Below the pieces are notes generated by a model. The model did not search any database. It worked only from the letters and a program-made list of their open reading frames with translations, and was not told the origin of the DNA. A stretch of 64,000 bases of DNA from positions 64,001 through 128,000 of the forward strand of contig AL929603.2 in assembly GCA_000002445.1 (NCBI GenBank). Reading direction: 5' to 3'. Positions 5,904-64,000 of this stretch are shown in pieces. The stretch's first letter is position 1. The number at the start of each line of letters is the position of its first letter. Source of the stretch: Trypanosoma brucei (taxonomy: Eukaryota). Position numbers and translations under genes: made by a program.

Positions 5904-8405
5904 CTATGCATTGTTACCACCTCTATTGTTAACTCCGTTGTTATTTTCACCTCTTGTTTTCAATTCAACGTATAGTGCAATAATGTGTTTATAAAGTGAG
6001 ACCGCGAACTGACGCACTTCCCTTTTCCAAAATCTTTCCTCAACCTCATTATTTTGCCCTTCATCTCTGTCAGTCCTTTCACAGCACTGCGGCTTCGTAA
6101 TTTTTTCGCTGTCAACCCTTTGGACATAAATTATTTCCCATACCATATCATTGGAAAAATTGTCCCAACCTTGGAAGTAACTTCGCAAATACCTCTTCAT
6201 CTTAAATAACCCACCGGTGCTGCAGGGATGTCTACCGGAAACTGTGTACTGCAGTCCCACAAAAGTCTTCGGGCTCTCAACGAAAAAGAACGCATCAACA
6301 ACTGGGAAACTCCTTGATTGCGGCTTGTACAATTTCATATATTGAATTTCAGCTCCAGCTACAATTGGAACATCCTCAGGAACCACAATCGAAGGACCAA
6401 TGAGTCTTGGTTCTTGCAGCACCTGCAGCACACTTTGTGGAATTTGATTCCTAGCAAATGAAAGGCCCTGTAACTCCCTTGCCAACTCAGTTAGTGTATT
6501 CTCATGCGACAATGCTTCAATGCCACTCTTCTCAAACATGTAGGCGGCGATAGCGCGGTTAGACAGCAGAGCAGACATTGCAGCATATTTATCCGTTAGC
6601 CAAGGTATCAGAAAGTCTAAAATAGCTTGTCCCGTGTAAGATGAAAGCGGTCTGCAGCGATACATTTCACACAGGAGCTTCTCCTCCTTCACTCGAACAA
6701 CCCCTACTAACTTGTGTGATACTTCATCTGTTTGCCACATAGCTGCGTTTTGGAAATATTTAGCGTAATCATTCATATCATCATCTTTCATTTTGCCAAT
6801 GGCTTCCTGAACCTTTCCCTCCTGCCTGTTATACGAACTAAGACGACCAATATGACGAAGCAGTGGACCAACGATACGAATGCGACCTTGAATTTCTTGC
6901 CATTCACTTTCAATTTTCTCCTTTGCAACTGGAGGACTCCACTTGTAAGCAGGAGCAATTTTCCCCCATCTCGATATGTGTATGGCTTCCAAATCCTTCA
7001 ATGTATCACAGTTCATGTAAATATCTGAGGCGGTGTTTTGCTTGGACCATTCATGGAATTGCTTGACGTTTGGAGAGCTCAAAGCAATACCGGCACAACC
7101 AGCAGGTGGTTTCGTCGGAGCAGGATGGTCCTTGTCCACATCGAATATAACGTATCCCTTGATATCCTCACCGCTACGTGATCCTCCGATTATTTGCTCA
7201 ACAACTGTAAATGCATTCCCATAATCATTGTAAAACGTAACATATCCTGCTCGACCACCTATGGGTTTGTGAAACACATACGCCTTACCCCTCACAACGT
7301 ATATGATAATCTGAAGCTGACTCGCTTCATAATGCAGTAGTTTGTATAACAGTAGGGATCCCACGGAAAACGATTTACCAATACCAGGTGTACCAATAAG
7401 AACATTAGACGCATCGTCAACAATCACTTCATCCATAAGCCACCGGTTAAGCACATTCTCCACCTTGTACCACACCCTCAGTGCTTCCCTGCGGATATAA
7501 ACATCACTTTTAAAAACATACTCCACTCCCTTCTCATGATTAATATCATAATCATTTGGGTTCTTTTCGAAAGACGTGTATGGCCAACCCATTTGAGATG
7601 TAAGCACAGCAATCTCCAAGTTACCGTGACGGGGAAGTGGTTCGTTCATAGTTTCCGGAGTGTGACTGACATCAACCTCCTCCTTCGTCCACATGTGTGG
7701 CGGTCTTCCATTGAACACTTTCATGCCAAGTGGCTCTTCATCATAACCCGACTCCACATAACCCCACGTCGCATTGTATATAGAATCATATACTCCTTTA
7801 AGTTCGCTACCATCAGCTGTTTGGGCAGCTCGCTTTTCCGCTCTCTTGGCGGCCGTCACCGCTCCATCCAACCTTCCCCTCGCCACGGGACCAACAAATT
7901 CTCTTATTTCCACTGTCCCCTTCTCCTCCCACTGACTGAGGTAGTAAATTTCTTTTTCGTCAAGGTAGTCTACCTTCTCAGACAGATCAATAGCTGTCTT
8001 CACTGTTTTAAACTCATTAGTGCCTTGTATATCCTCAAGAATCTCAGCATCAACAATATATTTTCTGGGATTCTTAACAAAAATGGGCATCCTAACATTT
8101 TCTGCCTCAGCCACCGCAAAAGTCCCGCCAACGAACTTCTGAATAAAGTCGTTCACTGTCATATCCCTCAAACCCGCATAATCATCCAGCAGCACATCCC
8201 TCACCTTACTATCCATTGTCCAGTTGGGCCCCCCTTCAGTTCTCTGCCGTATTTGTGGAGGCTGAGCAGCAGCAGCAGCAGCAGGAGGAGGAGGCGGCGG
8301 TACATTTTCATCCCGTGGCCTCCTCATGGGCCCTTCAAAATTATCTGCCACTTGTTGATTTTCATTATTTCCTTGTGGAGCTGCGGGACTATTTGCTCTT
8401 GACAT
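5904..8405 (-). CDS. RHS: Retrotransposon hot spot (RHS) protein, type-1 copy a, 833 aa, intact. N-terminal Pro/Ala tract and P-loop (GTPGIGKS).
   Basis: The 2502-nt ORF opens with ATG (cat on the plus strand at 8403..8405). Its N-terminus (MSRANSPAAPQGNNENQQVADNFEGPMRRP...) is shared by all RHS copies in the window. A Walker-A motif LIGTPGIGKS lies near 7365..7390. It is 99.8% identical to 21854..24355. Paralogs in the window are disrupted by ingi at the homologous position, which is characteristic of the T. brucei RHS family. Confidence 0.8.
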   Translation of the reverse strand: MSRANSPAAPQGNNENQQVADNFEGPMRRPRDENVPPPPPPAAAAAAQPPQIRQRTEGGPNWTMDSKVRDVLLDDYAGLRDMTVNDFIQKFVGGTFAVAEAENVRMPIFVKNPRKYIVDAEILEDIQGTNEFKTVKTAIDLSEKVDYLDEKEIYYLSQWEEKGTVEIREFVGPVARGRLDGAVTAAKRAEKRAAQTADGSELKGVYDSIYNATWGYVESGYDEEPLGMKVFNGRPPHMWTKEEVDVSHTPETMNEPLPRHGNLEIAVLTSQMGWPYTSFEKNPNDYDINHEKGVEYVFKSDVYIRREALRVWYKVENVLNRWLMDEVIVDDASNVLIGTPGIGKSFSVGSLLLYKLLHYEASQLQIIIYVVRGKAYVFHKPIGGRAGYVTFYNDYGNAFTVVEQIIGGSRSGEDIKGYVIFDVDKDHPAPTKPPAGCAGIALSSPNVKQFHEWSKQNTASDIYMNCDTLKDLEAIHISRWGKIAPAYKWSPPVAKEKIESEWQEIQGRIRIVGPLLRHIGRLSSYNRQEGKVQEAIGKMKDDDMNDYAKYFQNAAMWQTDEVSHKLVGVVRVKEEKLLCEMYRCRPLSSYTGQAILDFLIPWLTDKYAAMSALLSNRAIAAYMFEKSGIEALSHENTLTELARELQGLSFARNQIPQSVLQVLQEPRLIGPSIVVPEDVPIVAGAEIQYMKLYKPQSRSFPVVDAFFFVESPKTFVGLQYTVSGRHPCSTGGLFKMKRYLRSYFQGWDNFSNDMVWEIIYVQRVDSEKITKPQCCERTDRDEGQNNEVEERFWKREVRQFAVSLYKHIIALYVELKTRGENNNGVNNRGGNNA
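8264..8300. repeat. (CAG)6(GAG)3GGCGGCGG trinucleotide tract encoding the Pro/Ala run in the RHS N-terminus. Length varies between copies.
   Basis: gcagcagcagcagcagcaggaggaggaggcggcgg. The same tract recurs at about 13774..13810 and 24214..24250, and in shorter form at about 34944..34970. That copy encodes PPPPAAAAA where the others encode PPPPPPAAAAAAA. Confidence 0.8.
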
Positions 8406-11423: not shown

Positions 11424-13915
11424 TCAGGCAGCGGGGCCACCAGCAATAGCGTTTGGTTCATCCTGGGTGATCTCCTTAACAATATTCCCTTCCATCTTCA
11501 CTTGAAACTGGTTGATTCTATTCCACAACTCTGTAGTATAATCGCCTCTGCCCCCAACTGGTTCGCACTTCTGCCTCTCCTCGATTGGCTTGCTGTCACT
11601 GTACTGTATGTAAATCAGCTCCCATTTCAAGTTTCTTGCGAGCTTATCCCATTCACCAAACAATTGTTTCATTGCCTTGATAAACTTATCTACCTTCTCT
11701 CGTGTCGTGTGATGCGTTGGTGCCACTGTCGGCTGGAGCAGAACAATTGTTCTTGTAATGATCGCTCTTCCTTCTCTATCAACAGCTGGCTCAGTTACAA
11801 AGAAAAAGGCGTCCACAACGGGGAAATTTCCCTGTACAGGTCGGTAAAGGCACCCAACCTCAATGTCTTGGCCTGTCGTTTCGGGTAAATATGACGAAGT
11901 GAAGTTGGAACACGTCCCACGGCATTACCACTTGCCAGAGCGGATACATTTGAATCCATTTCTTCTCCAACGCGAGGGAGATACCGCAGGTGCGTCACAA
12001 TCGTCTGCACAACATTTCCCATCGTGAAGGCATATATGCCCACATTTTCAAATTCATCAGCGGCCTGCTCTTTTTTCCCACGAAAAACCTTTCGAAGGTA
12101 ATTGTCTCGCATACATGCTGTGTCCGCCCACTCTCTCAATTTCTGCTCAATATCAATGGAAACAGCTCTGTTTCTGCATTCTTCTCCATTCTCAGTTACA
12201 ACCCGGACCAACTTAGCCAACCTGTATGTAGTCCCGTCCTCGCGCCATTCAACTCGACTATTCAGCACCTTCATGTAGTGTTCAGCATCGCCTCTACTGA
12301 TTTCTGCCAGTGCCTCATTTATTTCTCTAACATGGTCACAATAGGGTTTGTCACCTTCCAGTACGTGGCGGGGCAGTGGGCCCACCTTCTTAATCCATCC
12401 TTCTATTTTCTGCCATTCATTCTCAAGGTTTATGATGTGAGCTTCGGTGATTTTACTTTCGTCCAACTTCGACAGCCGCCTCCACGCAACCGCAGCCTTC
12501 AGTTCCACCTCTTCATAGCAATTGATGCAAAAGCGCTCGCAAGCCCGTGGCCGCTTCCAGCGTCTGTAGTTATTTGGATCTGGAGATGTCAACACAATTA
12601 CGGGCCACGTTTCCGGCAATTTTGTCGGTATGGGTTCATCTCTCTCTTTCGCAAAGTCGTATATAATGTAACCAAGACCTTCTTCATCAGCCAAGTCATT
12701 GACAGCATCCACTCCATCTTTTTCTTCTTCATAAAATACAACCTTTCTCGGATGATCATTTGTCGCCCTGAAGAAAATATATGCCCTACCCTTCACAAAA
12801 TAAGCGATAATCCGCAACAGCTCCGAATCGTAATGCAGCAACCTTTGGAGCAGAAACGAGCCAACACCAAATGATTTCCCAATACCTGGAGTGCCAACGA
12901 GGACGCAAGGTATCTTTTTTTTATTCACGCCTGGCCCTAACCACAAATCCAGCCTCTGCTTCACAAGATACCACACTCTCATTACCTCTCGACGAATGTA
13001 CACATCCCGGTCAAACACGTAGTCTCCTGGTTCCTCCGCACCCTCTTGAATTACACTTCGCGGAATGCGGAAACGGTTATACGGCCAACCCTTCTGCGAG
13101 GTGAGCACAGCAATCTCCAAATTACCGTGACGAGGCAGTGGGTCGCACAAGTCATAAGGCGTGTGACTGACATTCACCTCCTCTTCTGTCCACAACTCGG
13201 GCTCGCCGTCACAATTACCCACAACCTTCATGCCAAGAGGTAAATCATTGTGACCCGACTCCACATAACCCCACGTCGCATTGTATATGGATTCATATAC
13301 TCCTTTCAGTTCGACACCATCAGCTTTTTGGGCAGCTCTTTTCCTTGCTTCTTTGGCGGCCGCCAACGCTCCATCCAACCTTCCCCTCGCCATGGGACCA
13401 ACAAATTCTCTTATTTCCACTGTCCCCTTCTCCTCCCACTGACTGAGGTAGTAAATTTCTTTTTCGTCAAGGTACCTTGCTTTCCGCTTCATTTCAGAGA
13501 ATTGGTTATATAATTCTTTATATTCCTCAAACTCATCAAGCCGCCGTATCCTTCCTAGAATCCCGGCATCCAAAATATAATCCTCCGGGCTCTGGACAAA
13601 CACATCCATTGCCACATTCTCTGTGTCATACGTATTAGAGAATTTTTTCAGCAAAAAGTCATGCACTGTCATATCCCTCAAACCCGCATAATCATCCAGC
13701 AGCACATCCCTCACCTTACTATCCATTGTCCAGTTGGGCCCCCCTTCAGTTCTCTGCCGTATTTGTGGAGGCTGAGCAGCAGCAGCAGCAGCAGGAGGAG
13801 GAGGCGGCGGTACATTTTCATCCCGTGGCCTCCTCATGGGCCCTTCAAAATTATCTGCCACTTGTTGATTTTCATTATTTCCTTGTGGAGCTGCGGGACT
13901 ATTTGCTCTTGACAT
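11424..13915 (-). pseudogene. RHS: RHS type-2 copy a. Full length of 830 codons, but frameshifted by a 1-bp deletion in a G/C homopolymer (GGG at 11883..11885, where the paralog at 27824..27827 has GGGG).
   Basis: The 706-aa ORF (11795..13915) and the 130-aa ORF (11424..11816) together are collinear with the paralog 27365..28843 plus 34052..35081. The downstream ORF matches the paralog C-terminus (FFFVTEPAVDREGRAI...AIAGGPAA) in the -1 frame. Confidence 0.8.
12845..12856 (-). other. Unoccupied (empty) ingi hot-spot target TTCTGCTCCAAA (minus-strand sense) in RHS2a. It is identical to the TSD flanking ingi-1.
   Basis: Plus strand 12845..12856 reads tttggagcagaa, followed by acgagccaacacc. Exactly this 12-mer is duplicated at 28786..28797 and 34052..34063. 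Confidence 0.85.
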
Positions 13916-26390: not shown

Positions 26391-27364
26391 TTCCACATAT
26401 AATATTCCTCAATATCGTTCACAAAATAAAAATAATTTCATTTCCTTCTGTATTCAGTTTCTTGTGCAGCAGTGTGTACTAATCATCCATAAAGTTTTTA
26501 ATTTGCCAAATACATCATTACGAAACTATTTTCCACAAATAAACAAACAAATAAACAACCAAACATTTTTAAATGTTGTTGTGAAACGGAAATTGAATCA
26601 CGGAAAATTGTGGGGCGCACACGTAATGGGCACCATGAATGCCTCTTTGGATATTCCTCTATGGATTTTCACCAGCATCATCAACTTACTTTTTGTGTAA
26701 AAAAAAACAAAAAAGAAATAAAGGTACAAATGCATTAATAAACCCAACTCCTCAGCAGGAAATCAAGAACAGGAAGCCACGAAAAGCGTATGGCATATAT
26801 GATTTTCACCTCTCAGTTACTTGAGGTGGATCGCATGATTTACCCACCTTCTAAGAACACACCCTCCGAGAGGCCCGATTAAAAGAAAAAAAAACGCTAT
26901 GACGGTTGAAAAGACGTTTTTCATAAACCTTCACTTTATACGTGAGGATGCATGAATAAACAATGATAACGATGAGAATGCTAACGGAAACAATGACGAA
27001 CCGTGAGGATCCTAGAAAAAAAAATAAAATAAAATCATCACGTACCTTCACAGTAGGGAAACTTAATAAATAACAAAATATAAATATTCCCTACACAGAG
27101 GTATAGGGAGTGTTCGTCAACTTCGTAATGCTAATCAAAAAGTCTTCAAATGTATCGATCATTCGTGTAGTCAATCAAATAAGAAGTAACATGTACTACA
27201 CGCACAAAAGCACACTTACAAAGCCTACAAACCCACTTGCCCCCTTTTAGAGAATACCACTCTCTAGTCAGTGATAGGAGAGGTGATATTAAAAGTATTC
27301 CCTTTATAATTATTTCTGACTCCTCAATTCGTTGCAACATAACATAACATGCAAAGATGTTGCA
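26391..27364. repeat. C-type segment copy 2.
   Basis: Matches 10441..11423. Confidence 0.75.
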
Positions 27365-28785: not shown

Positions 28786-28797
28786 TTTGGAGCAGAA
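28786..28797. repeat. Target-site duplication, 3' copy, of ingi-1 (plus strand tttggagcagaa; element sense TTCTGCTCCAAA).
   Basis: Immediately follows the element poly(A), which is a plus-strand T10 at 28798..28807. It is a 12/12 match to 34052..34063. Confidence 0.85.
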
Positions 28798-29069
28798 TTT
28801 TTTTTTTGAATTTTCTTCGTGCCTTCGTGAGAGTTTCTCCCAACTGGCGCGGCCATCAGCCATCACCGTAGAGCCCTGAGATGCTATCGGTCTGGCGACT
28901 GTGGCAGAGTCTCCCTTTTTTATTCATCCTAACACACCCTCTATAATTTTTGTTGTAGCTCCGCATATGAACGGAATACAGTAGATGGGGCGAGAAGCCC
29001 CCCTCACCCCGGACTCTCCCAAAGATGTCAATTAGCAATCCTTTTGTTTTGATTTTTGTTATTCGTTTA

Positions 29070-32000
29070 TTATTCTCTCCCCCTCTTTCTGTTTCTGTTG
29101 CTTGTTGACTGCATACCTCCTCTGTCTCTGAGGGTGTCTGGACTATTCCTGCGTCCGGTGCTTTTCCTGCTAGCTCCACATTCGGCAATAAGGGGGGAAG
29201 TTGCAGAAGGGAGAGTGGGTTGTATGACTGTTACCTTAGGTGAGGACTTCACCTGCGGCCGGCTCCGTTCAACCGCAATGAGAAACTGCGCCAGCCTTTT
29301 GGAGAAACATACATCCTGCACACACTCACCTTCTACCGCAAATCTGACACGTAACTCCTTCAAACCGGGACAGCTCATCAAGTGCAGCGACGTTTCTTCG
29401 CAGTCGCCGCGTTGGCTGGTAACAGCGCGCTCTACCTTCATACCGTGCATCTTCTTTTGATGTAGGGTGAGGCCAGTTTTGCTAGCACACTGCCTTCCGC
29501 ATGTCGGGCACACCAACATGGATGTGTTTGTATGCGGGGAATCAGTGGCACACAATTTTGTGCTTTTGCTGCATTTAAGCTCGACTCCCTCACCTTTGTG
29601 GAAAGCCTTACAGTGTCGGATGAGGGAGTCCCTGCAACTGAGCACTTTTTGGCACACACCACACTGCACCTCGCCCTTCCCCGGGACGTCAACGTTTCCC
29701 TCACGGGCACGCTTACGAGGGAATTGCACCAACACCACGGTACCGTCCTCCGTCACTATGCTTTTATGTTTGAATTTCTTGTGTAGTGTCAGGGAAGAAC
29801 GTGTACCGAAGCTCGCCTCGCACAGGTCACATTGAAACGGCAGCTTCCGTGTATCCTGAGAGGCTGGCGCTGCTGGGGCTTTACCATCTCCTTGCACTGA
29901 GTCCTCGTTCTCTCGCCCCCTTTTCACGCGGCAACTGCCGCTGCCTATGCCATGTATTGTTCTAAGGTGGTGTAGTAGTCTGCCTGGCACTGCGAATTTG
30001 GAGGCACAGATGGTACAATGAAGCACCTGCGGTCTCATCGGGACTCGTGTGCTCGATGGTAGGGGAACGATCGCCACCACTGGAGGGGGCTCCGGGGGGA
30101 TATCCACTGCAGGTGTTGCATCGCCGTATTTGATCCTCCGGAGGGCATCAGCTCGCACAAAGCCATGTTTGTTTACCATATGCGTTACAGCACTCGAGCG
30201 GCATTGGTATGTGGCATCACATTCCGTACATTTGGTCGGTTCGGAGGTTCTTTGAAGAGTGCGTGTCGCAACAGTTGGGGCTGTTTGTATTGTTGGCCCT
30301 ATCTCTGCATGTTGCGGGTTGCACCATCGGCACTGTGGAGGCACACTCGGGTTAATCTTTCGCAACATCCATCCATAGTGTCTTGAAGACCCAACCCGAA
30401 AGCGTGCCAGTGCCGTTTCTTCTTCCCTCGTCAGTTCTTCCTTATGTTTTGTTGGAAAGTGGTTGCCCGTGATACCAAACCTATGAGTGTTCTCATGGAC
30501 TTCTTCCGACCTAAGCACTCGCTTCGCATAAGCAATGATGTCGGGGATCCATGTGTCTCGCAACTGTGGTAAATCTGCGGCCTTTTTGGCCATGTCATCG
30601 CAAACCTCATTCCGTTTCACGCCACAATGGCCAAACACAAATTGCAGTCGGATACGTATCTTCCTTCTCTGAACTTGAAGCAGAAGCCTCCATAGTCGTC
30701 TTAGAATTGGGTCCGTTACGGCTAGGGGGCCTGTCTGCAGTGCTGTTAACATTGACAGCGAGTCAGAGAAGATGGACAACCTGCTCGGTGTGGTTCTGTA
30801 TGCCGGAAGCCATTTCAGCAGCCGTTGCAGTCCTATCTCTAATGCTACGCATTCCGCTCTGTAACTGCATGAAAGTTCCCCTGCTCCTGTCTTAGGTGCA
30901 CAAATCAGCGTGTTGTTTCTATAGAGCAGGGCAGCTGCTCCGGACTTCTCACCGAGGGACACGGATCCATCAGTCCACAATTCGTAGTGCTCTCGCCGCG
31001 GTGGCTCCTTCCCCCTCCGTGCAAAATGTCGTTCAATCCACTTTTCGGAAGCCTCCCTTTTGACATCGTCAGGGTCATCAGCGCACACAGGCTTTATCTG
31101 CGTGTGAAATATCGGTCGGCAGCTGTGGCGGAGCGTCGATGTCTCTAGTGGGTGCTCGCGTGGCTCAATGCGGAGGTGGGGGTAGGACCGCATGATACGG
31201 GAATGTAGGGCTCTGACTGGGTGTTTGCTGTGGTATACTTCTTCAGCACTGCGCCGCAAACATCCGCCTCGTGACTCACACATCAGCATGAATTTCATGC
31301 TGCGCACAAGAGTGGCCGTCTTGAGTGGCAGGAGGTTTGCTTCCAGCAGAGAGTCCTCTTTGCGCGTCCCATGCGGTATGCCGGCTATGATGCGACTGGC
31401 TTTGTGTTGTGCTGATGCAAGGAGGTCGCGACTTCGTTCCGAAGCGTCCCAGTACCATACCTCAATGCCATACATGGTGTGTGCCTGTACGAGTGCTAGA
31501 TAAAAAGTTCTCAGTACTTGTCGTCTTGGCCCCCATGTAGAAGCTGAGATGGCTGCTATCTGCAGTAGTCGGAAGTCCATCTTGCGTCTCGTTTCGGCCG
31601 CATGTGTTGCCATCCCCTGCAGACACTGGAATGTTACTCCTAGAAGCTTCGGTGTCCTGTCAGCTCCTATTCTTTCACCGTCCAGTTGTAATGTAAGGGG
31701 GTGGCGCTCTATACACCCGAAGAGTGTGCACTTTGTTTTCGCTACGTTGACAGACATGAAGTACTCTTTTGACCACTGTAACACCACGTTTAGACCGCAT
31801 TGTAGTGTGTGGTTGATGACATCCCTCTCTGTGTGCCTCGCAAGTAGCGTTAGGTCGTCTGCAAAGAATCCGTGCTGCAGTAACGGCACCTCTGCAAGGC
31901 GTTGGCTCAACGAGTTCATGACAATAATGAACATGATTGGGCCAAGGACAGTTCCTTGTGGCACTCCTCGCTCAAATGTTCTGCTTCTGGAAAGCTTCTC

Positions 32001-34051
32001 CTTGAATCTCACTCTGCCAGTTCGGTTACTCAGAAATGATACGCACCACTTCACAATGTGGGGTGATACCTTCATTCTGTGCATTTCCCTCGCAATTTTG
32101 TCGTGGTCTACTGTATCAAATGCCTTCTCGTAGTCAACGAATACAGCACCCGTACGATATTGGTGCGTGGGACGGCAGAGGGCAGCGCGGACGTGCAGGA
32201 GTTGTTCGAGCGTTGAGCATCCGGGGCGAAAGCCTGATTGCTGCGGCGTCAGCTGGGACTCAACAGTGTCTCTAAGTCTCGCGGCAATTATGCGCTCCAT
32301 GACTTTGCAGAGACAGCTCGTGAGCGTCACAGGCCTGTAAGAATCGAGGTCCTCCGCCTTTTTTCCGGCCTTCAGGATGGGGATGATAACACCAGTCTTC
32401 CATGCAGGCGGCACGACTCCCGTTCGTAGGCTCTCATTGAATAGCCTCAGAACAACATTCAGCGCTGTTCTGCCGAGATGTTGCAGTGCCTCGTTGTATA
32501 AGCAATCAGGTCCGGCTGCGGATCCACTCGGTAGCAGTTTGATCGATCTCCGTAGTTCAGCCATCGTGATGGGACTGAACTCACTCGCTATCGTCTTTAT
32601 TGGTGCCGGTGGGTGTGAGTCGGGGTGCCTTCTTGCGCGGGACGAGTACAGTTTACTGAACCTCTCAGCTTGACGGTAGTCCGTGATGGCCGCGTTATCT
32701 ACAAGTACAGCCGGTGTGGTTAGTGGTCGTGGCGCATATACCTTCTTGACAATGTGCCAACTGCAGCGGTCTGACACCGCAAGTCTGGAGCATAGCGTGC
32801 TCCATCTCTTCTTTGTGGTACGGTCCAGGATCTGCTTACGCGTGGCTACCAACTTTTCCCTTCGGTGGGAGGGTCCGCATCCAGCGATCTCTTCATCGAG
32901 TTTCGCGAGCTCAGGTGTCCAATGTGGTGGCGTTGCTCTGCAGCCACGGGGGACGGAGACCTTCGTCGCAATGCGGATGGCGGAGCTCAATTTCTGTTCC
33001 AGGGTGTTGACGTTCTTCTCTCTACCAATTTTCCTGCAGAGCTCGTCAACCTTGAGACGGAAATTCCTCCAGTTAGCTTTTAGCCATGCGTACATGGGCT
33101 TTTGAAGCCGCGGGCAACTCAGTGCATCTGTGTCGTCTCCAACGATAACGTCGAAAAATATGTGATGGTGATCGCTATCGGGAGAATACAGCGATGTCCA
33201 CGTGTACACTGTGCAATTCCTTGACAGTGTCACATCAGGGGTGGACTCCCCGTGGTGGCGCGCGTACCTGGTGCACTCACCAGTGTTGCAGACCAGAAAC
33301 TGGTTGTCAATGCACCACTGTGTGAGGGTTTCACCCTTGGTATTTGGTGGGCTCGCGCGATCCCATGCCAACGCGTGTGCGTTAGCGTCTGCACCGATGA
33401 GCTGGGCACCGTCAGTCGTCAGAAGCGTATCTAGGTCAGTTGCCGTGAAGGTGTGTTTTGGTGGGATGTATGCCGACGTGACAGTCAGCGCCGTTCCACG
33501 TGCAAGGTGAATTGTTGCATGCACTTGTTCAATGCGACCAATAACGGCCATACCGGTCTCGACTGGTAGGTCCTCCCTCACTAGTATTGATACACCACCT
33601 CCTTTGCAGTTACGAGCTATTCCGTGATGTTGGTAGCCAGCAACGCTAAAGCAAGCCGCCTCTCCAGGCGTCATCCTTGTCTCGCTCAACAGACAAAAGG
33701 CGATCCGCTCATCAACAAGGGTTTTGTGGAGTGCTAATCTCTTTCCTTGAGATAGCCCGGCGCAGTTCCACTGCATCCCGCGCAACGACGGGCCGGGATT
33801 CTCTTCCACATCACCGGACAGCAGCATCTTAGTGCGGATGATACTGCTGATGGCACGCTGGCACGTGCCCAGGGACCGACAAATGAAAGACGGTGTCCCA
33901 GCAAGACGCTGCTGATCCCTGTGCTGTATGATGCCGTAGCCGGAGCACAGCAGTGTTCCCCATGAAAGGAACGCTGCTGGCTCTTGGCTTCCCCCGATGA
34001 TACGGGGTACTGGACCCTGGCACCACGTTGAGGTGGCCGGCATCGCCAGGG
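29070..34051 (-). CDS. ingi polyprotein ORF of about 1660 codons with no stop or frameshift. Domains in protein order: leader with 2A-like motif; APE-type endonuclease (about 33132..33776); reverse transcriptase (about 31752..32534, FADD motif); RNase H (about 30582..30989, HYELWTDGS...); five C2H2 zinc fingers (about 29442..30227). The stop codon is at 29070..29072.
   Basis: This is the ingi-derived portion of the 2003-aa ORF 29070..35081. Domain motifs were read from the translation: MQWNCAGLSQ...FFDVIVGDD for the endonuclease; PQGTVLGPIMF...GFFADDLTLL for the RT; CTECDATYQCRSSAVTHMVNKHG and CPTCGRQCASKTGLTLHQKKMHG for the fingers. It is in frame with the upstream RHS codons. The element's own first ATG is at nt 9..11. 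Confidence 0.8.
33789..33812 (-). other. 2A-like co-translational 'self-cleaving' motif DVEENPGP, in the context IIRTKMLLSGDVEENPGP|SLRGMQWNCAG. It lies about 80 codons into ingi-1, upstream of the endonuclease domain.
   Basis: Codons 424 to 431 of the 2003-aa ORF; plus strand cgggccgggattctcttccacatc. It matches the D(V/I)ExNPG|P consensus of viral 2A and of 2A-like sequences reported in trypanosomatid L1Tc/ingi elements. Confidence 0.85.
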
Positions 34052-34063
34052 TTTGGAGCAGAA
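34052..34063. repeat. Target-site duplication, 5' copy, of ingi-1 (tttggagcagaa).
   Basis: These are the last 12 nt of the RHS 5' part (codons F-L-L-Q plus A) abutting the ingi 5' end at 34051. Confidence 0.85.
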
Positions 34064-35081
34064 ACGAGCCAACACCAAATGATTTCCCAATACCTGGAGT
34101 GCCAACGAGGACGCAAGGTATCTTTTTTTTATTCACGCCTGGCCCTAACCACAAATCCAGCCTCTGCTTCACAAGATACCACACTCTCATTACCTCTCGA
34201 CGAATGTACACATCCCGGTCAAACACGTAGTCTCCTGGTTCCTCCGCACCCTCTTGAATTACACTTCGCGGAATACGGAAACGGTTAAACGGCCAACCCT
34301 TCTGCGAGGTGAGCACAGCAATCTCTAAATTACCGTGACGAGGCAGTGGGTCGCACAAGTCATAAGGCGTGTGACTGACATTCACCTCCTCTTCTGTCCA
34401 CAACTCGGGCTCGCCGTCACTATTACCCACAACCTTCATGCCAAGAGGTAAATCATTGTGGCCCGATTCCACATAACCCCACGTCGCATTGTATACGGAT
34501 TCATATACTCCTTTCAGTTCGACACCATCAGCTGTTTGGTGAGCTCGTTTCCTTGCTTCTTTGGCGGCCGCCAACGCTCCATCCAACATTCCCCTCGCCA
34601 CGGGACCAACAAATTCCCTTATTTCCCCTCTTCCCTTCTCCTCCCACTGCCGGAGGTAGTAAATTTCCTTCTCAGACAGATAAATAGCTGCCCTCACTGT
34701 TTTAAATTCATCAAGCCGCCGTATCCTTCCTAGAATCCCGGCATCCAAAATATAATACTCCGGGCTCTGAACAAACACATCCATTGCCACATTCTCTGTG
34801 TCATACGTATTAGAGAATTTTTTCAGCAGAAAGTCATGCAACTTCATATCCCTCAAACCCTCACAGCGTTGCAGCAATACATCTTCAATAGAACTATTCA
34901 TCGTCCAGTTGGGCCCCTCTTCAGTTCTCTGCCGTATTTGTGGAGGCTGAGCAGCAGCAGCAGCAGGAGGTGGCGGTACATTTTCATCCCGTGGCCTCCT
35001 CATGGGCCCTTCAATATTACCTGCCACTTGTTGGTTTTCATTATTTCCTTGTGGAGCTGCGGGACTATTTGCTCTTGACAT

Positions 35082-49022: not shown

Positions 49023-49055
49023 CTTCCTTATAACACTTCCCCCCCTCGTTTGATT
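49023..49055 (+). promoter_or_regulatory. Polypyrimidine tract upstream of the LRR gene ATG; a putative trans-splice signal.
   Basis: cttccttataacacttccccccctcgtttgattc followed by AG dinucleotides at 49062 to 49090. The ATG is at 49137. This is inference only. Confidence 0.3.
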
Positions 49056-49136
49056 CATCGCTTAGCTCTATTATTAAAAAAGAAAAAGCATTTCCTCAAC
49101 ACTCAGCACCTCAAGGAATCGGAAACGGGAACTACA

Positions 49137-57989: not shown

Positions 57990-58517
57990 TTAATCAAGAA
58001 CAATACTCAACATTTTGCTTCAGGACACCAGACACTTATTCTGGGAGAAAAGCGTCTGAGGGAACGTGAAGCAAGAGGTGATAATGTTTTCAGTTTATAT
58101 GGCTCCGTATGCAATTCAAAGTGGAGTGACATTATAATGGACAATGGAACTCAAATGCTGGGCATGAAGTTTGTTGATGGAACGCGTGCTGATGATATAA
58201 TGTGGAAAGATGAAGAAGTTAATGTCGTCCCCAAAATTGAGGAAACTTTTGAACATAAGCCGGAACGCACGGGAAGGAGGTGAAGCAACGGTTCCAACAT
58301 CTTAAATGGAGTGGTCGTACTCACAGTTTAATATTTAAATTCACAATGACATTCTCATTCAGAGAAAGGACTGGAGACTGAAATGTTGTGGAAAGAAAGC
58401 TCTGCGCTTGGCCAGCTGAGGAAACTCGAATACTAAGACACGCACCAAATCCTTACATTGTGATTGGAAACTCCAGAATCAGTAAGTCACTGGCCATCGG
58501 CTCACTTCTCCTTCACA
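57990..58517 (+). pseudogene. RHS: Highly degenerate RHS pseudogene, 5' fragment up to the hot spot (…YIVIGNSRISKSLAIGSLLLH).
   Basis: Weak but collinear similarity to the RHS region ...LKGVYDSIYNATWGYVESG...LGMKVFNG...WTKEEVDVSHTP...LIGTPGIGKSFSVGSLLLY. The window has YGSVCNSKWSDIIMDNGTQMLGMKFVDG...MWKDEEVNVVPKIEE...IVIGNSRISKSLAIGSLLLH. The reading frame is broken by stops. Confidence 0.55.
58506..58517. repeat. Target-site duplication, 5' copy, of ingi-2 (ttctccttcaca).
   Basis: These 12 nt precede the ingi 5' end (ccctggcgatgcc at 58518). They are a 12/12 match to 63724..63735. Confidence 0.85.
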
Positions 58518-61500
58518 CCCTGGCGATGCCGGCCACCTCAACGTGGTGCCAGGGTCCAGTACCCCGTATCATCGGGGGAAGCCAAGAGCCAGCAGAGTTC
58601 CTTTCATGGGGAACACTGCTGTGCTCCGGCTACGGCATCATACAGCACAGGGATCAGCAGCGTCTTGCTGGGACACCGTTTTTCATTTGTCGGTCCCTGG
58701 GCACGTGCCAGCGTGCCATCAGCAGTATCATCCGCACTAAGATGCTGCTGTCCGGTGATGTGGAAGAGAATCCCGGCCCGTCGTTGCGCGGGATGCAGTG
58801 GAACTGCGCCGGGCTATCTCAAGGAAAGAGATTAGCACTCCACAAAACCCTTGTTGATGAGCGGATCGCCTTTTGTCTGTTGAGCGAGACAAGGATGACG
58901 CCTGGAGAGGCGGCTTGCTTTAGCGTTGCTGGCTACCAACATCACGGAATAGCTCGTAACTGCAAAGGAGGTGGTGTATCAATACTAGTGAGGGAGGACC
59001 TACCAGTCGAGACCGGTATGGCCGTTGTTGGTCGCATTGAAAAAGTGCATGCAACAATTCACCTTGCACGTGGAACGGCGCTGACTGTCACGTCGGCATA
59101 CATCCCACCAGAACACACCTTCACGGCAACTGACCTAGATACGCTTCTGACGACTGACGGTGCCCAGCTCATCGGTGCAGACGCTAACGCACACGCGTTG
59201 GCATGGGATCGCGCGAGCCCGCCAAATACCAAGGGTGAAACCCTCACACAGTGGTGCATTGACAACCAGTTTCTGGTATGCAACACTGGTGAGTGCACCA
59301 GGTACGCGCGCCACTACGGGGAGTCCACCCCTGATGTGACACTGTCAAGGAATTGCACAGTGTACACGTGGACATCGCTGTATTCTCCCGATAGCGATCA
59401 CCATCACATATTTTTCGACGTTATCGTTGGAGACGACACAGGTGCACTGAGTTGCCCGCGGCTTCAAAAGCCCATGTACGCATGGCTAAAAGCTAACTGG
59501 AGGAATTTCCGTCTCAAGGTTGACGAGCTCTGCAGGAAAATTGGTAGAGAGAAGAATGTCAACACCCTGGAACAGAAATTGAGCTCCGCCATCCGCATTG
59601 GACACCTGAGCTCGCGAAACTCGATGAAGAGAGCGCTGGATGCGGACCCTCCCACCGAAGGGAAAAGTTGGTAGCCACGCGTAAGCAGATCCTGGACCGT
59701 ACCCCAAAGAAGAGATGGAGCACGCTATGCTCCAGACTTGCGGTGTCAGACCGCTGCAGTTGGCACATTGTCAAGAAGGTATATGCGCCACGACCACTAA
59801 CCACACCGGCTGTACTTGTTGATAACGCGGCCATCACGGACTACTGTCAAGCTGAGAGGTTCAGTAAACTGTACTCGTCCCGCGCAAGAAGGCACCCCGA
59901 CTCACACCCACCGGCACCAATAAAGACGATAGCGAGTGAGTTCAGTCCCATCACGATGGCTGAACTACGGAGATCGATCAAACTGCTACCGAGTGGATCC
60001 GCAGCCGGACCTGATTGCTTATACAACGAGGCACTGCAACATCTCGGTAGAACAGCGCTGAATGTTGTTCTGAGGCTATTCAATGAGAGCCTACGAACGG
60101 GAGTCGTGCCGCCTGCATGGAAGACTGGTGTTATCATCCCCATCCTGAAGGCCGGAAAAAAGGCGGAGGACCTCGATTCTTACAGGCCTGTGACGCTCAC
60201 GAGCTGTCTCTGCAAAGTCATGGAGCGCATAATTGCCGCGAGACTTAGAGACACTGTTGAGTCCCAGCTGACGCCGCAGCAATCAGGCTTTCGCCCCGGA
60301 TGCTCAACGCTCGAACAACTCCTGCACGTCCGCGCTGCCCTCTGCCGTCCCACGCACCAATCTCGTACGGGTGCTGTATTCGTTGACTACGAGAAGGCAT
60401 TTGATACAGTAGACCACGACAAAATTGCGAGGGAAATGCACAGAATGAAGGTATCATCCCACATTGTGAAGTGGTGCGTATCATTTCTGAGTAACCGAAC
60501 TGGCAGAGTGAGATTCAAGGAGAAACTCTCCAGAAGCAGAACATTTGAGCGAGGAGTGCCACAAGGAACTGTCCTTGGCCCAATCATGTTCATTATTGTC
60601 ATGAACTCGTTGAGCCAACGCCTTGCAGAGGTGCCGTTACTGCAGCACGGATTCTTTGCAGACGACCTAACGCTACTTGCGAGGCACACAGAGAGGGATG
60701 CCATCAACCACACACTACAGTGCGGTCTAAACGTGGTGTTACAGTGGTCAAAAGAGTACTTCATGTCTGTCAACGTAGCGAAAACAAAGTGCACACTCTT
60801 CGGGTGTATAGAGCGCCACCCCCTTACGTTGCAACTGGACGGCGAAAGAATAGGAGCTGACAGGACACCGAAGCTTCTAGGAGTAACATTCCAGTGTCTG
60901 CAAGGGATGGCAACACATGCGGCCGAAACGAGACGCAAGATGGACTTCCGACTACTGCAGATAGCAGCCATCTCAGCTTCTACATGGGGGCCAAGACGAC
61001 AAGTACTGAGAACTTTTTATCTAGCACTCGTACAGGCACACACCATGTATGGCATTGAGGTATGGTACTGGGACGCTTCGGAACGAAGTCGCGACCTCCT
61101 TGCATCAGCACAACACAAAGCCAGTCGCATCATAGCCGGCATACCGCATGGGACGCGCAAAGAGGACTCTCTGCTGGAAGCAAACCTCCTGCCACTCAAG
61201 ACGGCCACTCTTGTGCGCAGCATGAAATTCATGCTGATGTGTGAGTCACGAGGCGGATGTTTGCGGCGCAGTGCTGAAGAAGTATACCACAGCAAACACC
61301 CAGTCAGAGTCTTACATTCCCGCATCATGCGGTCCTACCCCCACCTCCGCATTGAGCCACGCGAGCACCCACTAGAGACATCGACGCTCCGCCACAGCTG
61401 CCGACCGATATTTCACACGCAGATAAAGCCTGTGTGCGCTGATGACCCTGACGATGTCAAAAGGGAGGCTTCCGAAAAGTGGATTGAACGACATTTTGCA

Positions 61501-63723
61501 CGGAGGGGGAAGGAGCCACCGCGGCGAGAGCACTACGAATTGTGGACTGATGGATCCGTGTCCCTCGGTGAGAAGACCGGGGCAGCTGCCCTGCTCTATA
61601 GAAACAACACGCTGATTTGTGCACCAAAGACCGGAGCAGGGGAACTCTCATGCAGTTACAGAGCGGAATGCGTAGCATTAGAGATAGGACTGTAACGGCT
61701 GCTGAAATGGCTTCCGGCTTACAGAAGCACACCGAGCAGGTTGTCCATCTTCTCTGACTCGCTGTCAATGTTAACAGCACTGCAGGCAGGTCCACTAGCC
61801 GTAACGGACCCAATTCTGAGACGACTATGGAGGCTTCTGCTTCAAGTTCAGAGAAGGAAGGTGCGTATCCTAATTCAATTTATGTTCGGTCATTGTGATA
61901 TGAAACGGAATGAGGTTTGTGATGAAATGGCTAAAAAGGCCGCAGATTTACCACAGTTGCGAGACACATGGATCCCCGACATCATTGCTTATGCGAAGCG
62001 AGTGCTTAGGTCGGAAGAAGTCCATGAGAACACTCATAGGTTTGGTATCACTGGCAACCACTTTTCAACAAAATATAAAGAAGAACTGACGAGGGAAGAA
62101 GAAACGGCACTGGCACGCTTTCGGGTTGGGTCTTCAAGACACTATGGATGGATGTTGCGAAAGATCAACCCGAGTGTGCCTCCACAGTGCCGATGGTGCA
62201 ACCCGCAACATGCAGCGATAGGGCCAACAATACAAAAGGCCCCAACTGTTGCGACACGCACTCTTCAGAGAACCTCCGAACCGACCAAATGTACGGAATG
62301 TGATGCCACATACCAATGCCGCTCGAGTGCTGTAACGCATATGGTAAACAAACATGGCTTTGTGCGAGCTGATGCCCTCCGGAGGATCAAATACGGCGAT
62401 GCAACACCCGCAGTGGATATCCCCCCGGAGCCCCCTCCAGTGGTGGCGATCGTTCCCCTACCATCGAGCACACGAGTCCCGATGAGACCGCAGGTGCTTC
62501 ATTGTACCATCTGTGCCTCCAAATTCGCAGTGCCAGGCCGACTATTACACCACCTTAGAACAATACATGGCATAGGCAGCGGTAGTTTCCGCGTGAAAAG
62601 GGGGCGAGAGAACGAAGACTCATTGCAAGGAGATGGTAGCGCTCCAGCAGCGCCAGCCTCTCAGGATACACGGAAGCTGCCGTTTCAATGTGACCTGTGC
62701 GAGGCGAGCTTCGGTACACGTTCTTCCCTGACACTACACAAAAAATTCAAACATAAAAGCATAGTGACGGAGGACGGTACCGTGGTGTTAGTGCAATTCC
62801 CTCGTAAGCGTGCCCGTGAGGGAAACGTTGACGTCCCGGGGAAGGGCGAGGTGCAGTGTGGTGTGTGTGCCAAAAAGTGCTCAGTTGCAGGGACTCCCTC
62901 ATCCGACACTGTAAGGCTTTCCACAAAGGTGAGGAAGTCGAGCTTAAATGCAGCAAAAGCACAAAATTGTGTGCCACTGATTCCCCCCGTACAAACACAT
63001 CCATGTTGGTGTGCCCGACATGCGGAAGGCAGTGTGCTAGCAAAACTGGCCTCACCCTACATCAAAAGAAGATGCACGGTATGAAGGTAGAGCGCGCTGT
63101 AACCAGCCAACGCGGCGACTGCGAAGAAACGTCGCTGCACTTGATGAGCTGTCCCGGTTTGAAGAAGTTACGTGTCAGGTTTGCGGTAGAAGGTGAGTGT
63201 GTGCGGGATGTATGCTTCTCCAAAAGGCTGGCGCAATTTCTCATTGCGGTTGAACGGAGCCGGCCGCAGGTGAAGTCCTCACCTAAGGTAACAGTCATAC
63301 AACCCACTCTTCCTTCTGCAACTTCCCCCCTTATTGCCGAGTGTGGAGCTAGCAGGAAAAGCACCGGACGCAGGAATAGTCCAGACACCCTCAGAGACAG
63401 AGGAGGTATGCAGTCAACAAGCAACAGAAACAGAAAGAGGGGGAGAGAATAATAAACGAATAACAAAAATCAAAACAAAAGGATTGCCAATTGACATCTT
63501 TTGGAGAGTCCAGGGTGGGAGGCTTCTCGCCCCATCTGCTGTATTCCGTTCATATGCGGAAATACAACAAAAATTATAGAGAGTGTGTTAGGATGAATGA
63601 AAAAGGGAGACTCTGCCACAGTCGCCAGACCGATAGCATTTCAGGGCTCTACGGTGATGGCTGATGGCCGCGCCAGTGGGGGGAAACTCCCACGAAGGCA
63701 CGAAGAAAATTCAAAAAAAAAAA
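58518..63723 (+). mobile_element. ingi: ingi non-LTR retrotransposon copy 2, full length at 5206 bp but degenerate. The ORF is split into 58518..59674, 59668..61695, 61741..63084 and 62856..63452. Poly(A) at 63713..63723.
   Basis: Same 5' terminus and domain order as ingi-1 (about 98% aa identity where alignable). Lesions relative to copy 1: (i) an internal deletion of about 50 bp near 59600, causing a frameshift; (ii) a CAA to TAA nonsense codon at 61693..61695 (LEIGL* where copy 1 has LEIGLQ); (iii) a +2 (GT) expansion at about 62861..62869, causing a frameshift. Confidence 0.9.
58757..58780 (+). other. 2A-like motif DVEENPGP in ingi-2, identical to the one in ingi-1.
   Basis: gatgtggaagagaatcccggcccg; codons 124 to 131 of ORF 58388..59674. 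Confidence 0.85.
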
Positions 63724-63735
63724 TTCTCCTTCACA
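63724..63735. repeat. Target-site duplication, 3' copy, of ingi-2 (ttctccttcaca).
   Basis: Immediately follows the A11 run at 63713..63723. Confidence 0.85.
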
Positions 63736-63890
63736 AACTAAAGCATGATGCCAGAGTATTGCCTGTTACCGCATATTTTATAGGAGGTCATGCATGCATA
63801 TATATATGTATATGTATATATGTCTGTGTTGTATCTTGGAACGTTGCGCCCATATGGCAAATGGATTGGAAGACTGCTGCTGCATAAATT
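63724..63890 (+). pseudogene. RHS: Degenerate RHS pseudogene, 3' fragment resuming after the hot spot (KLKHDARVLPVTAYFIGGHACIY...).
   Basis: Collinear with RHS KLLHYEASQLQIIIYVVRGKAYVF. It then decays into a TA/TG-rich microsatellite and stop codons. Confidence 0.5.
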
Positions 63891-64000
63891 CATCAACCTT
63901 GGTCGCATCTATCGTACAGGAGATTCCGAAACGTATGTGTGCACGCTGCACTTTGAATCCGCATTGAGGGTGGTAACTTTCCAGTCGCGCAGAGACGTTG

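What the first reader, a model, noticed from the sequence alone, without database searches (positions are those of the whole stretch)
58506..63735. A second, independent ingi insertion at the homologous RHS codon of a different, very degenerate RHS pseudogene. It is again same-sense and in frame, and its TSD is related in sequence.
What the sequence shows:
- The TSDs are TTCTGCTCCAAA (copy 1) and TTCTCCTTCACA (copy 2). They share the pattern TTCT.CT.CA.A.
- Both targets encode the (F/L)LL(Q/H) just after the P-loop.
- Both elements are oriented with the RHS and continue its frame.

Established knowledge: the RHS family was named for this insertion hot spot.

Inference: the ingi endonuclease recognises a short sequence or structural motif that is preserved even in this decayed pseudogene. 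The host copy of ingi-2 is barely recognisable as RHS, yet it retains the motif and a perfect 12-bp TSD.
Basis: partly seen in the sequence, partly recalled or inferred. Interest (0 to 1): 0.55.

Follow-up and report, generated by a model that had tools for sequence, protein, structure and literature searches.

The report
Second ingi at RHS hot spot
This is a decayed copy of the Trypanosoma brucei ingi retrotransposon, inserted at the published "retrotransposon hot spot" of a degenerate RHS pseudogene on chromosome 1; the description is correct, but it is a textbook case and not a new finding.

Summary
A 5,206-bp ingi element lies at 58518..63723 (+). It has the Pr77 5' hallmark and an A11 tail. 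It is flanked by a perfect 12-bp duplication, TTCTCCTTCACA, which occurs only at these two places in the window.

With the element removed, the flanks join into a peptide that passes Pfam's RHS thresholds across the junction. The duplicated codons occupy RHSP profile positions 17-20, five codons after the (degenerate) P-loop. That is the same nucleotide, orientation and codon phase as ingi-1 in this window.

The two insertions are independent. Their duplications differ at 3 of 12 bases between loci but are perfect within each locus. ingi-1 also has an empty paralogous site in the window.

The window is T. b. brucei TREU927 chromosome 1. Both the hot spot and a target signature for the ingi endonuclease are already published. 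Host 2 matches that signature at 8 of 10 positions, and ten non-RHS ingi/RIME sites I sampled match at 4-9 (background mean 2.6).

Two corrections are needed. The signature lies mostly upstream of the duplication, so the resemblance between the two duplications mainly reflects homologous RHS codons. Being in frame follows automatically from inserting at the same nucleotide.

Verdict: already known, low interest.

The parts
58038..58268 (+). Relic of the RHS N-terminal domain of the host pseudogene. It is in a different frame from the P-loop relic.
   Evidence: tblastn to the window's RHS proteins, E 1e-4 to 7e-5. Pfam RHS_N PF20445 26.1 bits against a cut-off of 21.
58382..58505 (+). Relic of the RHS P-loop domain upstream of the insertion. 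The Walker A is degenerate (GNSRISKS) and is followed by five codons, LAIGS. The frame is closed upstream by TGA at 58379-58381.
58484..58517 (+). Target site of the ingi endonuclease: 22 nt upstream of the first-strand nick plus the 12 nt that become duplicated. It matches the published ingi4 signature at 8 of 10 positions.
   Evidence: Signature taken from PMC3820030, section 3.3. Background P(score>=8) = 6e-4.
58506..58517 (+). 5' copy of the 12-bp target-site duplication, TTCTCCTTCACA.
58518..63723 (+). ingi-2: a full-length but inactivated Tbingi non-LTR retrotransposon (5,206 bp).
   Evidence: 98.1% identical to ingi-1. Pfam endonuclease and reverse-transcriptase domains on its ORF pieces. 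tblastn shows its coding capacity is split over three frames.
58518..58596 (+). 79-bp 5' hallmark (Pr77) shared by ingi and RIME. The element's own ATG is at 58526-58528.
   Evidence: Literature: PMC1874656, PMC4035085.
58757..58780 (+). 2A-like ribosome-skipping motif DVEENPGP, intact.
   Evidence: Sequence read. The same motif was found in ingi-1. The ingi 2A is reported to be active (PMC3708506).
59595..59596 (+). Site of a 49-bp deletion (frameshift) relative to ingi-1 and to the T. b. equiperdum orthologue.
61693..61695 (+). Premature stop TAA. The codon is CAA in ingi-1 and in the T. b. equiperdum orthologue.
62861..62862 (+). 2-bp insertion (frameshift) relative to ingi-1.
63713..63723 (+). 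Poly(A) tail, A11.
63724..63735 (+). 3' copy of the 12-bp target-site duplication, TTCTCCTTCACA.
63736..63803 (+). Continuation of the RHS P-loop-domain relic after the insertion (KLKHDARVLPVTAYFIGGHACIY).
28786..34063 (-). Comparison copy: ingi-1 (28798..34051) with its duplications TTCTGCTCCAAA (28786-28797 and 34052-34063). It lies inside an uninterrupted 2003-aa RHS::ingi ORF (29070..35081).
12844..12855 (-). Empty paralogous site of ingi-1 in an intact 706-aa RHS ORF (11795..13915). It matches the signature at 10 of 10 positions.
7343..7354 (-). Empty homologous 12-mer TACTGTTATACA in the 833-aa RHS ORF. A twin lies at 23293-23304. Both match the signature at 9 of 10 positions.

Best explanation
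ingi-2 is an ordinary retrotransposition event of the Tbingi element (ingi4 subclade) into the hot spot that gave the RHS family its name.

**Mechanism (target-primed reverse transcription; established for this class of element, inferred here)**
1. The element's APE-type endonuclease binds a degenerate, strand-specific signature. Its core, GTxGGxT, lies 4-10 nt upstream of the nick. In RHS genes this core is encoded by the (V/I)-G-S codons after the P-loop.
2. The endonuclease nicks the bottom strand at the upstream edge of what becomes the duplication.
3. The freed 3'-OH primes reverse transcription on the poly(A) tail of the ingi RNA.
4. The top strand is cut 12 nt further on, and repair produces the 12-bp duplication.

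**What the sequence shows**
- The host was already a decayed RHS relic that still carried 8 of the 10 signature bases.
- The event was separate from the one that produced ingi-1.
- The target motif is asymmetric and the element inserted full length. Orientation and reading frame relative to the old RHS frame are therefore fixed by geometry.
- The two duplications look alike because they are homologous RHS codons.
- The insertion predates the split between the TREU927 haplotype and the T. b. equiperdum haplotype.
- The TREU927 copy later lost coding capacity through a 49-bp deletion, a nonsense codon and a 2-bp insertion.
For: **Element anatomy**
- The hallmark 5' end, A11 tail, exact 12-bp duplication and 98.1% identity to ingi-1 are all present.
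- Endonuclease and reverse-transcriptase domains are found on its ORF pieces; RNase H was found only on ingi-1, and the rest of the ingi-2 coding sequence aligns to the ingi-1 ORF.

**Host is RHS, insertion at the homologous nucleotide**
- Supported.
- The position agrees with PMC7563717, which places the P-loop motif five codons upstream of the hot spot.

**Target signature**
- The published signature comes from PMC3820030.
- The only perfect matches in the window are the ingi-1 target and its empty paralogue.
- Host 2 scores 8 of 10.
- Ten ingi/RIME 5' junctions from T. b. gambiense and T. b. equiperdum score 4-9, median 7. None lies in RHS-like sequence.
- Background: mean 2.6, P(>=7) = 0.005, P(>=8) = 0.0006.
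- The per-position counts reproduce T-26, G-22, T-21, G-19, G-18 and T-16.

**Independence of the two insertions**
- The duplications differ at 3 of 12 bases between loci but are 12 of 12 within each locus.
- The hosts share only about 39% amino-acid and 51-65% nucleotide identity, while the elements share 98%.
- ingi-1 interrupts one copy of a 97.5%-identical segmental duplication. The alignment break overlaps by exactly the 12-bp duplication.

**Age and decay**
- The orthologous T. b. equiperdum locus (L010) carries ingi at the same junction.
- Flank divergence (2.3%) and element divergence (2.0%) are similar.
- The equiperdum copy lacks the deletion and the stop codon.
Against: - At a score of 8 or more, the 10-base signature is met at about 75 positions in this 64-kb window. 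On its own it does not explain why both ingi copies here sit in RHS sites. An extended recognition sequence, chromatin or transcription state, or survival bias (insertions in pseudogenes are tolerated) must contribute. None of these was tested.
- My external sample is small (n = 10), and nine of those ten sites lack an intact duplication.
- The endonuclease's preference is inferred from insertion-site statistics. I found no nicking assay for the ingi enzyme in the papers I could read.
- The two primary papers (Bringaud 2002 and 2004) are not held in the library. They were used only through citing papers and from memory.
Confidence: 0.9

Rival explanations
1. Single ancestral insertion. One ingi entered an ancestral RHS gene, and both loci inherited it through gene duplication, so the two copies are not independent.
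For: Both loci share the nucleotide position, orientation and frame. BLAST extends the ingi-1/ingi-2 alignment 19 nt into the 5' flank.
Against: - Each locus has a perfect duplication of its own that differs from the other's at 3 of 12 bases. This would need three parallel substitutions in both copies of each pair.
- The hosts are about 39% identical in protein, while the elements are 98% identical in DNA.
- An empty paralogue of host 1 lies within a 97.5%-identical duplication.
Confidence: 0.02
2. Arrival by recombination. ingi-2 reached the relic by ectopic recombination or gene conversion with another RHS::ingi locus, not by retrotransposition.
For: Most ingi copies I sampled in VSG arrays lack duplications, which shows that ingi copies do get rearranged. 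The three ingi copies compared are all about 98% identical to one another, so conversion between copies cannot be excluded for internal parts.
Against: The duplication is perfect and specific to host 2. It is embedded on both sides in host-2-specific degenerate sequence that rejoins into one continuous RHS alignment. No conversion tract from another RHS copy is visible in the flanks.
Confidence: 0.03
3. The recognition motif lies inside the duplicated 12-mer, as the first reader implied with TTCT.CT.CA.A.
For: The published signature includes T at duplication positions 2, 4 and 7. In my sample T at position 7 and A at position 10 each occur in 7 of 10 non-RHS sites. Two non-RHS 12-mers share 6 of the 9 pattern positions.
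Against: The positions with the strongest conservation (9 of 10 sites) are all upstream of the nick.
Confidence: 0.1
4. The in-frame geometry is selected. ingi targets this phase of RHS so that its proteins can be translated from trans-spliced RHS mRNA, with the 2A peptide releasing them from the RHS N-terminus.
For: - ingi-1 lies in an uninterrupted 2003-aa RHS::ingi ORF with 2A at aa 424-431.
- Transcripts driven by the element's own promoter are unspliced and poorly translated in the related L1Tc (PMC1874656, PMC3383444).
- The ingi 2A is reported to be active (PMC3708506).
Against: - Frame is a 1-in-3 by-product of a fixed insertion point.
- In host 2 the RHS frame is open for only 45 codons.
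- In T. b. equiperdum the same locus has lost one base of the duplication, which breaks the fusion frame, yet its ingi ORF is still open.
- The 5' hallmark of this clade acts as an HDV-like ribozyme that cuts co-transcripts at +1, which would separate RHS from ingi RNA. PMC4035085 reports this for relatives; Rfam found nothing here.
Confidence: 0.08

Closest known systems
Tbingi / RIME insertions in RHS pseudogenes of Trypanosoma brucei (Bringaud et al. 2002, Eukaryot Cell 1:137; cited in PMC7563717)
   Same: - Same organism and chromosome. The window's LRRP ORF is exactly XP_846398.1 of TREU927, on a 1,064,672-bp contig.
- Same element and same insertion point, five codons after the P-loop.
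- Same orientation.
- RHS halves flank the element on both sides.
   Different: Nothing of substance. The host copy is more decayed than typical RHS pseudogenes: only about 110 codons are recognisable and its Walker A is degenerate.
Relative site specificity of ingi/RIME: the ingi4 target signature AxxxxxxxTxxxGTxGGxTxxx^xTxTxxTxxxxx with a 12-bp duplication (Bringaud et al. 2004, Mol Biol Evol 21:520; quoted in PMC3820030)
   Same: - The duplication is 12 bp.
- The nick position relative to the signature is the same.
- Host 1 matches at 10 of 10, host 2 at 8 of 10, and the empty RHS sites at 9-10 of 10.
   Different: Host 2 lacks T-26 and G-22. It keeps T-21, G-19, G-18, T-16 and the three T's inside the duplication.
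L1Tc/NARTc of T. cruzi, which also insert in RHS genes and show relative site specificity (Bringaud et al. 2006; PMC1874656, PMC5814959)
   Same: Same clade, with the Pr77 hallmark, a 2A peptide, a single ORF encoding APE, RT and RNase H, and a 12-bp duplication.
   Different: The target signature is different: the ingi6 type, TTTTxxxxxA^A (PMC3820030).
Strictly site-specific non-LTR elements (R1/R2 in rDNA; SLACS/CZAR in spliced-leader genes)
   Same: Repeated independent insertion at one nucleotide of a multicopy host gene, in a fixed orientation.
   Different: ingi is only relatively site-specific. It also inserts outside RHS, as in the ten non-RHS junctions, and it uses an APE-type rather than a restriction-like endonuclease.

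Membership tests
Tbingi (ingi4 subclade) non-LTR retrotransposon | Conserved 77-79-bp 5' hallmark (Pr77) shared with RIME | tested here: met
   The 40-mer matches with 0 mismatches. 78 nt are 100% identical to ingi-1. The same hallmark heads ten elements in other T. brucei genomes.
Tbingi (ingi4 subclade) non-LTR retrotransposon | About 5.25 kb long, with RIME-like ends and a 3' poly(A) tail | tested here: met
   5,206 bp, or 5,255 bp if the 49-bp deletion is restored. The tail is A11. The 5' and 3' terminal 80 nt also flank a 0.5-kb RIME in L009. The size agrees with PMC3447711.
Tbingi (ingi4 subclade) non-LTR retrotransposon | [quoted passage not shown] | tested here: not met
   - The endonuclease and reverse-transcriptase domains are present, but the ORF is split over three frames with one premature stop. 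The element is therefore a member by descent but not autonomous.
- RNase H and the zinc finger were detected by Pfam only on ingi-1.
- ingi-1 in the same window does meet this feature, with 1,657 aa from its own ATG, and the T. b. equiperdum orthologue is called with an open 1,656-aa ORF.
- The 2A motif is intact in ingi-2.
Tbingi (ingi4 subclade) non-LTR retrotransposon | 12-bp target-site duplication | tested here: met
   Exactly 12 bp, 12 of 12 identical, and found only at these two places in the window.
Tbingi (ingi4 subclade) non-LTR retrotransposon | Preceded by the ingi4 target signature | tested here: met
   8 of 10 specified bases match. Background P = 6e-4 per position.
RHS (retrotransposon hot spot) gene family: host of the insertion | RHS N-terminal domain followed by the RHS P-loop domain (Pfam PF20445, PF07999) | tested here: met
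   RHS_N scores 26.1 bits (cut-off 21). RHSP scores 28.8 bits (cut-off 25) on the peptide rejoined across the insertion. The two pieces are collinear but in different frames.
RHS (retrotransposon hot spot) gene family: host of the insertion | Intact ATP/GTP-binding (Walker A) motif and an open reading frame | tested here: not met
The motif reads GNSRISKS instead of GTPGIGKS. Stops and frameshifts lie upstream, and no similarity is found beyond about 110 codons.
RHS (retrotransposon hot spot) gene family: host of the insertion | RIME/ingi insertion point five codons downstream of the P-loop motif | tested here: met
   SKS-LAIGS|LLLH in host 2 and GKS-FGVGS|FLLQ in host 1. Both fall at RHSP profile positions 17-20. 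The literature statement is in PMC7563717.

The most novel reading that the evidence does not exclude
The in-frame RHS::ingi geometry, together with the N-terminal 2A peptide, may be a selected way for ingi to have its proteins translated from trans-spliced RHS mRNAs. In trypanosomes, transcripts from the element's own promoter carry no spliced leader. The intact 2003-aa RHS::ingi ORF of ingi-1 in this window is the kind of copy that could do this. ingi-2 would then be a dead relic of the same geometry. The two 2A papers I could read (PMC3708506, PMC3894237) contain no occurrence of 'RHS', but I could not read the primary RHS papers.
Probability: 0.08. Interest if true: 0.5.

Novelty: already known. 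Interest (0 to 1): 0.1.

Why it matters
It matters little as a discovery. The RHS hot spot, the 12-bp duplication and the endonuclease target signature were described in 2002-2004, and this window comes from T. b. brucei TREU927 chromosome 1. From my memory of Bringaud 2002, that chromosome's RHS cluster was part of the data that defined the family.

The locus is useful as a clean teaching and benchmark example. One 64-kb window holds:
- a filled site with its empty paralogue (ingi-1 and 12844-12855);
- a second independent filled site in a decayed relic (ingi-2);
- two further empty sites.

The one open point it highlights is quantitative. The 10-base signature alone is met about 75 times in the window, so it does not by itself explain the concentration of insertions in RHS.

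Tried and rejected
**Searches that led nowhere**
- **Primary papers.** Bringaud 2002 and 2004 and the 2009 ingi-subfamily paper are not held under DOI or PMC id. I used citing papers instead.
- **Protein-database survey of RHS::ingi junctions.** Two searches, one with the ingi N-terminus and one with the junction peptide, returned only short ingi/RIME ORFs and no RHS fusions, because pseudogenes are not translated in the databases. The hits were still useful as handles to fetch ten non-RHS ingi/RIME loci.
- **Exact look-ups.** Neither the window's LRRP nor P0019 was on record in the contig index. The source was identified through the cluster listing instead.
- **Rfam scan.** A scan of 58300-64000 for the HDV-like ribozyme reported at the Pr77 hallmark found no hit at E <= 0.1.
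- **Tandem repeats.** None were reported in 53000-64000.

**Hypotheses rejected**
- **Structural (hairpin) target motif.** DNA folds of 12 target sites give 0 to -3.8 kcal/mol, a mean z of -0.26 and no common stem.
- **Motif specially preserved in the relic.** The target region is 20/34 and 22/34 identical to two RHS copies, against 80/155 and 77/152 for the rest of the alignable relic. That is no clear excess.
- **Single ancestral insertion, or arrival by recombination.** See the rival explanations.
Full report
**1. What is at the coordinates**

- The 12-mer TTCTCCTTCACA occurs exactly twice in the window, at 58506-58517 and 63724-63735. Shuffled sequence gives 0.01 expected matches.
- The bases before the two copies differ, so the repeat is exactly 12 bp.
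- The 5,206 bp between the copies start with CCCTGGCGATGCCGGCCACC..., the hallmark 5' end of T. brucei ingi/RIME. The 40-mer has 0 mismatches and only two copies in the window.
- The element ends ...GAAGAAAATTC followed by A11.
- It is 98.1% identical to the other ingi in the window, ingi-1 at 34051..28798 on the minus strand. It differs by a 49-bp deletion and two 2-bp indels.
- Pfam finds the endonuclease and reverse-transcriptase domains on its ORF pieces.
- tblastn with the ingi-1 ORF shows the coding capacity spread over three frames. There is also a CAA->TAA nonsense codon at 61693-61695.
- ingi-2 is therefore a full-length but dead ingi.

**2. The host and the position**

- Removing the element and one repeat copy gives ...IVIGNSRISKSLAIGSLLLH|KLKHDARVLPVTAYFIGGHA.
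- This aligns without interruption across the junction to aa 315-378 of the window's 833-aa RHS protein (39% identity, E 5e-6).
- It scores 28.8 bits on Pfam RHSP (gathering cut-off 25), covering profile positions 1-44.
- An upstream piece in another frame scores 26.1 bits on RHS_N (cut-off 21).
- Nothing else RHS-like is detectable in 54000-58038, or in the last 200 bp of the window.
- The Walker A is degenerate (GNSRISKS). The local frame is closed 45 codons upstream by TGA at 58379-58381.
- In both hosts the repeat begins at codon position 2, five codons after the P-loop, at RHSP profile positions 17-20: SKS-LAIGS|LLLH and GKS-FGVGS|FLLQ.
- This is the position given in the literature for the RIME/ingi hot spot (PMC7563717, citing Bringaud 2002).

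**3. Independence of the two insertions**

- The two repeats differ at 3 of 12 bases between loci, yet each is 12 of 12 within its own locus.
- The hosts are about 39% identical in protein and 51-65% in alignable DNA, whereas the elements are 98% identical.
- ingi-1 has a direct control inside the window.
  - Segments 1-12855 and 15935-28797 are a 97.5%-identical segmental duplication.
  - The alignment stops at the ingi-1 repeat and resumes as 12844-13459 = 34052-34667. The overlap is exactly the 12 bp.
  - 12844-12855 is therefore the empty site, lying in an intact 706-aa RHS ORF.
- A single inherited insertion is excluded.
- Arrival by recombination is very unlikely, because the repeat and both flanks are specific to host 2.

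**4. Source and age**

- The LRRP ORF at 48972-53318 is exactly XP_846398.1/CAB95328.2 of T. b. brucei TREU927, on a 1,064,672-bp contig. That length is chromosome 1 (my inference).
- From memory, the chromosome I RHS cluster was part of the data set that defined the RHS family (Bringaud 2002; the paper is not held).
- The orthologous locus of T. b. equiperdum (L010, CM010672.1) has ingi at the same junction. Its flank reads ggctcacTTCTCCTCACA|CCCTGG, with one T of the repeat missing. This may be real or an assembly error.
- Flank divergence (2.3%) and element divergence (2.0%) between the two genomes are alike. The insertion therefore predates the split of these haplotypes.
- The equiperdum copy lacks the 49-bp deletion and the nonsense codon. 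It is open over all 1,602 codons visible, and the gene call is 1,656 aa. The lesions of ingi-2 therefore arose later, in the TREU927 lineage.

**5. The target motif**

- PMC3820030 (section 3.3, citing Bringaud 2004) gives the Tbingi/TbRIME signature as AxxxxxxxTxxxGTxGGxTxxx^xTxTxxTxxxxx. The arrow marks the first-strand nick, and the last 12 positions are the duplicated bases.
- In the window the only perfect matches are the ingi-1 target and its empty paralogue. The two empty RHS1-type sites have one mismatch. Host 2 matches at 8 of 10.
- As an independent check I fetched nine loci around ingi/RIME-encoded ORFs from T. b. gambiense and T. b. equiperdum.
  - Their ten 5' junctions lie in no RHS-like sequence.
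  - They score 4-9 of 10, median 7.
  - The background mean is 2.6, with P(>=7) = 0.005 and P(>=8) = 0.0006.
  - Position counts reproduce T-26, G-22, T-21, G-19, G-18 and T-16. Inside the duplicated 12-mer there is only weak preference: T at position 7 and A at position 10, each in 7 of 10 sites.
- Three conclusions follow.
  - The endonuclease-preference inference is right, and it is already published.
  - The informative bases lie mostly upstream of the repeat. In RHS they are the (V/I)-G-S codons.
  - The similarity of the two repeats is mainly homology of RHS codons.
- The empty RHS1 sites are good targets, not poor ones.
- The motif is not better conserved than the rest of the alignable relic.
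- The targets share no hairpin.

**6. Frame and orientation**

- The signature is strand-specific and the element is full length, with its own ATG at nt 9-11. Insertion at the same nucleotide therefore forces the same orientation and frame. These are not additional coincidences.
- At the equiperdum orthologue the frames no longer coincide, yet the ingi ORF is intact. This argues against selection for the fusion at this locus.
- A speculative reading remains. The 2A peptide (DVEENPGP, 58757-58780; reported active for ingi in PMC3708506) could free ingi proteins translated from RHS mRNA. The uninterrupted 2003-aa RHS::ingi ORF of ingi-1 fits this reading.
- The HDV-like ribozyme reported for this clade's 5' hallmark (PMC4035085) would cut such co-transcripts. 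I rate this reading at about 8%.

**7. What remains unexplained**

- Sites scoring 8 or more on the signature occur about 75 times in the window, yet both ingi copies sit in RHS sites.
- If all sites scoring 8 or more were equally likely, the rough chance of that would be (5/75)^2, about 0.004.
- A longer recognition sequence, the local chromatin or transcription state, or tolerance of insertions in pseudogenes must contribute.
- This is the known 'hot spot' phenomenon, not a new one.

**8. Verdict**

- The feature is already known and of low interest.

Noticed in passing
window 29070..35081 (-): ingi-1 lies in an uninterrupted 2003-aa ORF. It consists of 343 aa of RHS N-terminus, the junction residues T-L-A, and the canonical 1,657-aa ingi ORF, with the 2A motif at aa 424-431. 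It is a potentially translatable RHS::ingi fusion and a potentially autonomous ingi copy.
   Followed up: partly
window 1-12855 vs 15935-28797, and 12844-13459 vs 34052-34667: A segmental duplication of about 12.9 kb (97.5% identity) carries two RHS genes. One copy is interrupted by ingi-1, which gives a clean empty/filled pair that overlaps by the 12-bp duplication.
   Followed up: yes
L010 18494-23309 (T. b. equiperdum CM010672.1): The orthologue of ingi-2 has an open ingi ORF (gene,656 aa), without the 49-bp deletion or the stop codon. One T of the 5' duplication is missing, which may be real or an assembly error. The 3' junction lies outside the fetched locus.
   Followed up: partly
L001 9993, L002 2486, L004 9777, L005 9993: Full-length ingi copies in VSG-array regions of T. 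b. equiperdum have both ends but no matching 12-bp duplication. This suggests exchange between elements after insertion. Among the sampled elements only the RIME in L009 (10116-10619) has a perfect duplication, TGAAAAAAGATT.
   Followed up: partly
window 63790-63830: A short TA/TG-rich simple-sequence stretch (catatatatatgtatatgtatatatgtctgtgt) interrupts the RHS relic just after the recognisable part. It scores below the threshold of Tandem Repeats Finder.
   Followed up: no
window 48972-53318 (+): An intact 1,448-aa leucine-rich repeat protein, identical to XP_846398.1 of TREU927. Paralogues 90-92% identical exist on chromosomes 1 and 2. The T. b. equiperdum orthologue is annotated as 'paraflagellar rod component', which looks like a misnaming.
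   Followed up: partly
proteins P0015 and P0018 (T. b. gambiense, T. theileri): Annotated ORFs read from non-RHS host sequence straight into the RIME/ingi frame (...SLA|MPATSTW). One of them follows a GP63 peptidase domain in T. theileri. Read-in fusions are therefore not restricted to RHS hosts.
   Followed up: no
window 58518-58596: Rfam (E <= 0.1) reports no ribozyme on the Pr77 hallmark, although HDV-like ribozyme activity is published for this clade's 5' ends.
   Followed up: no
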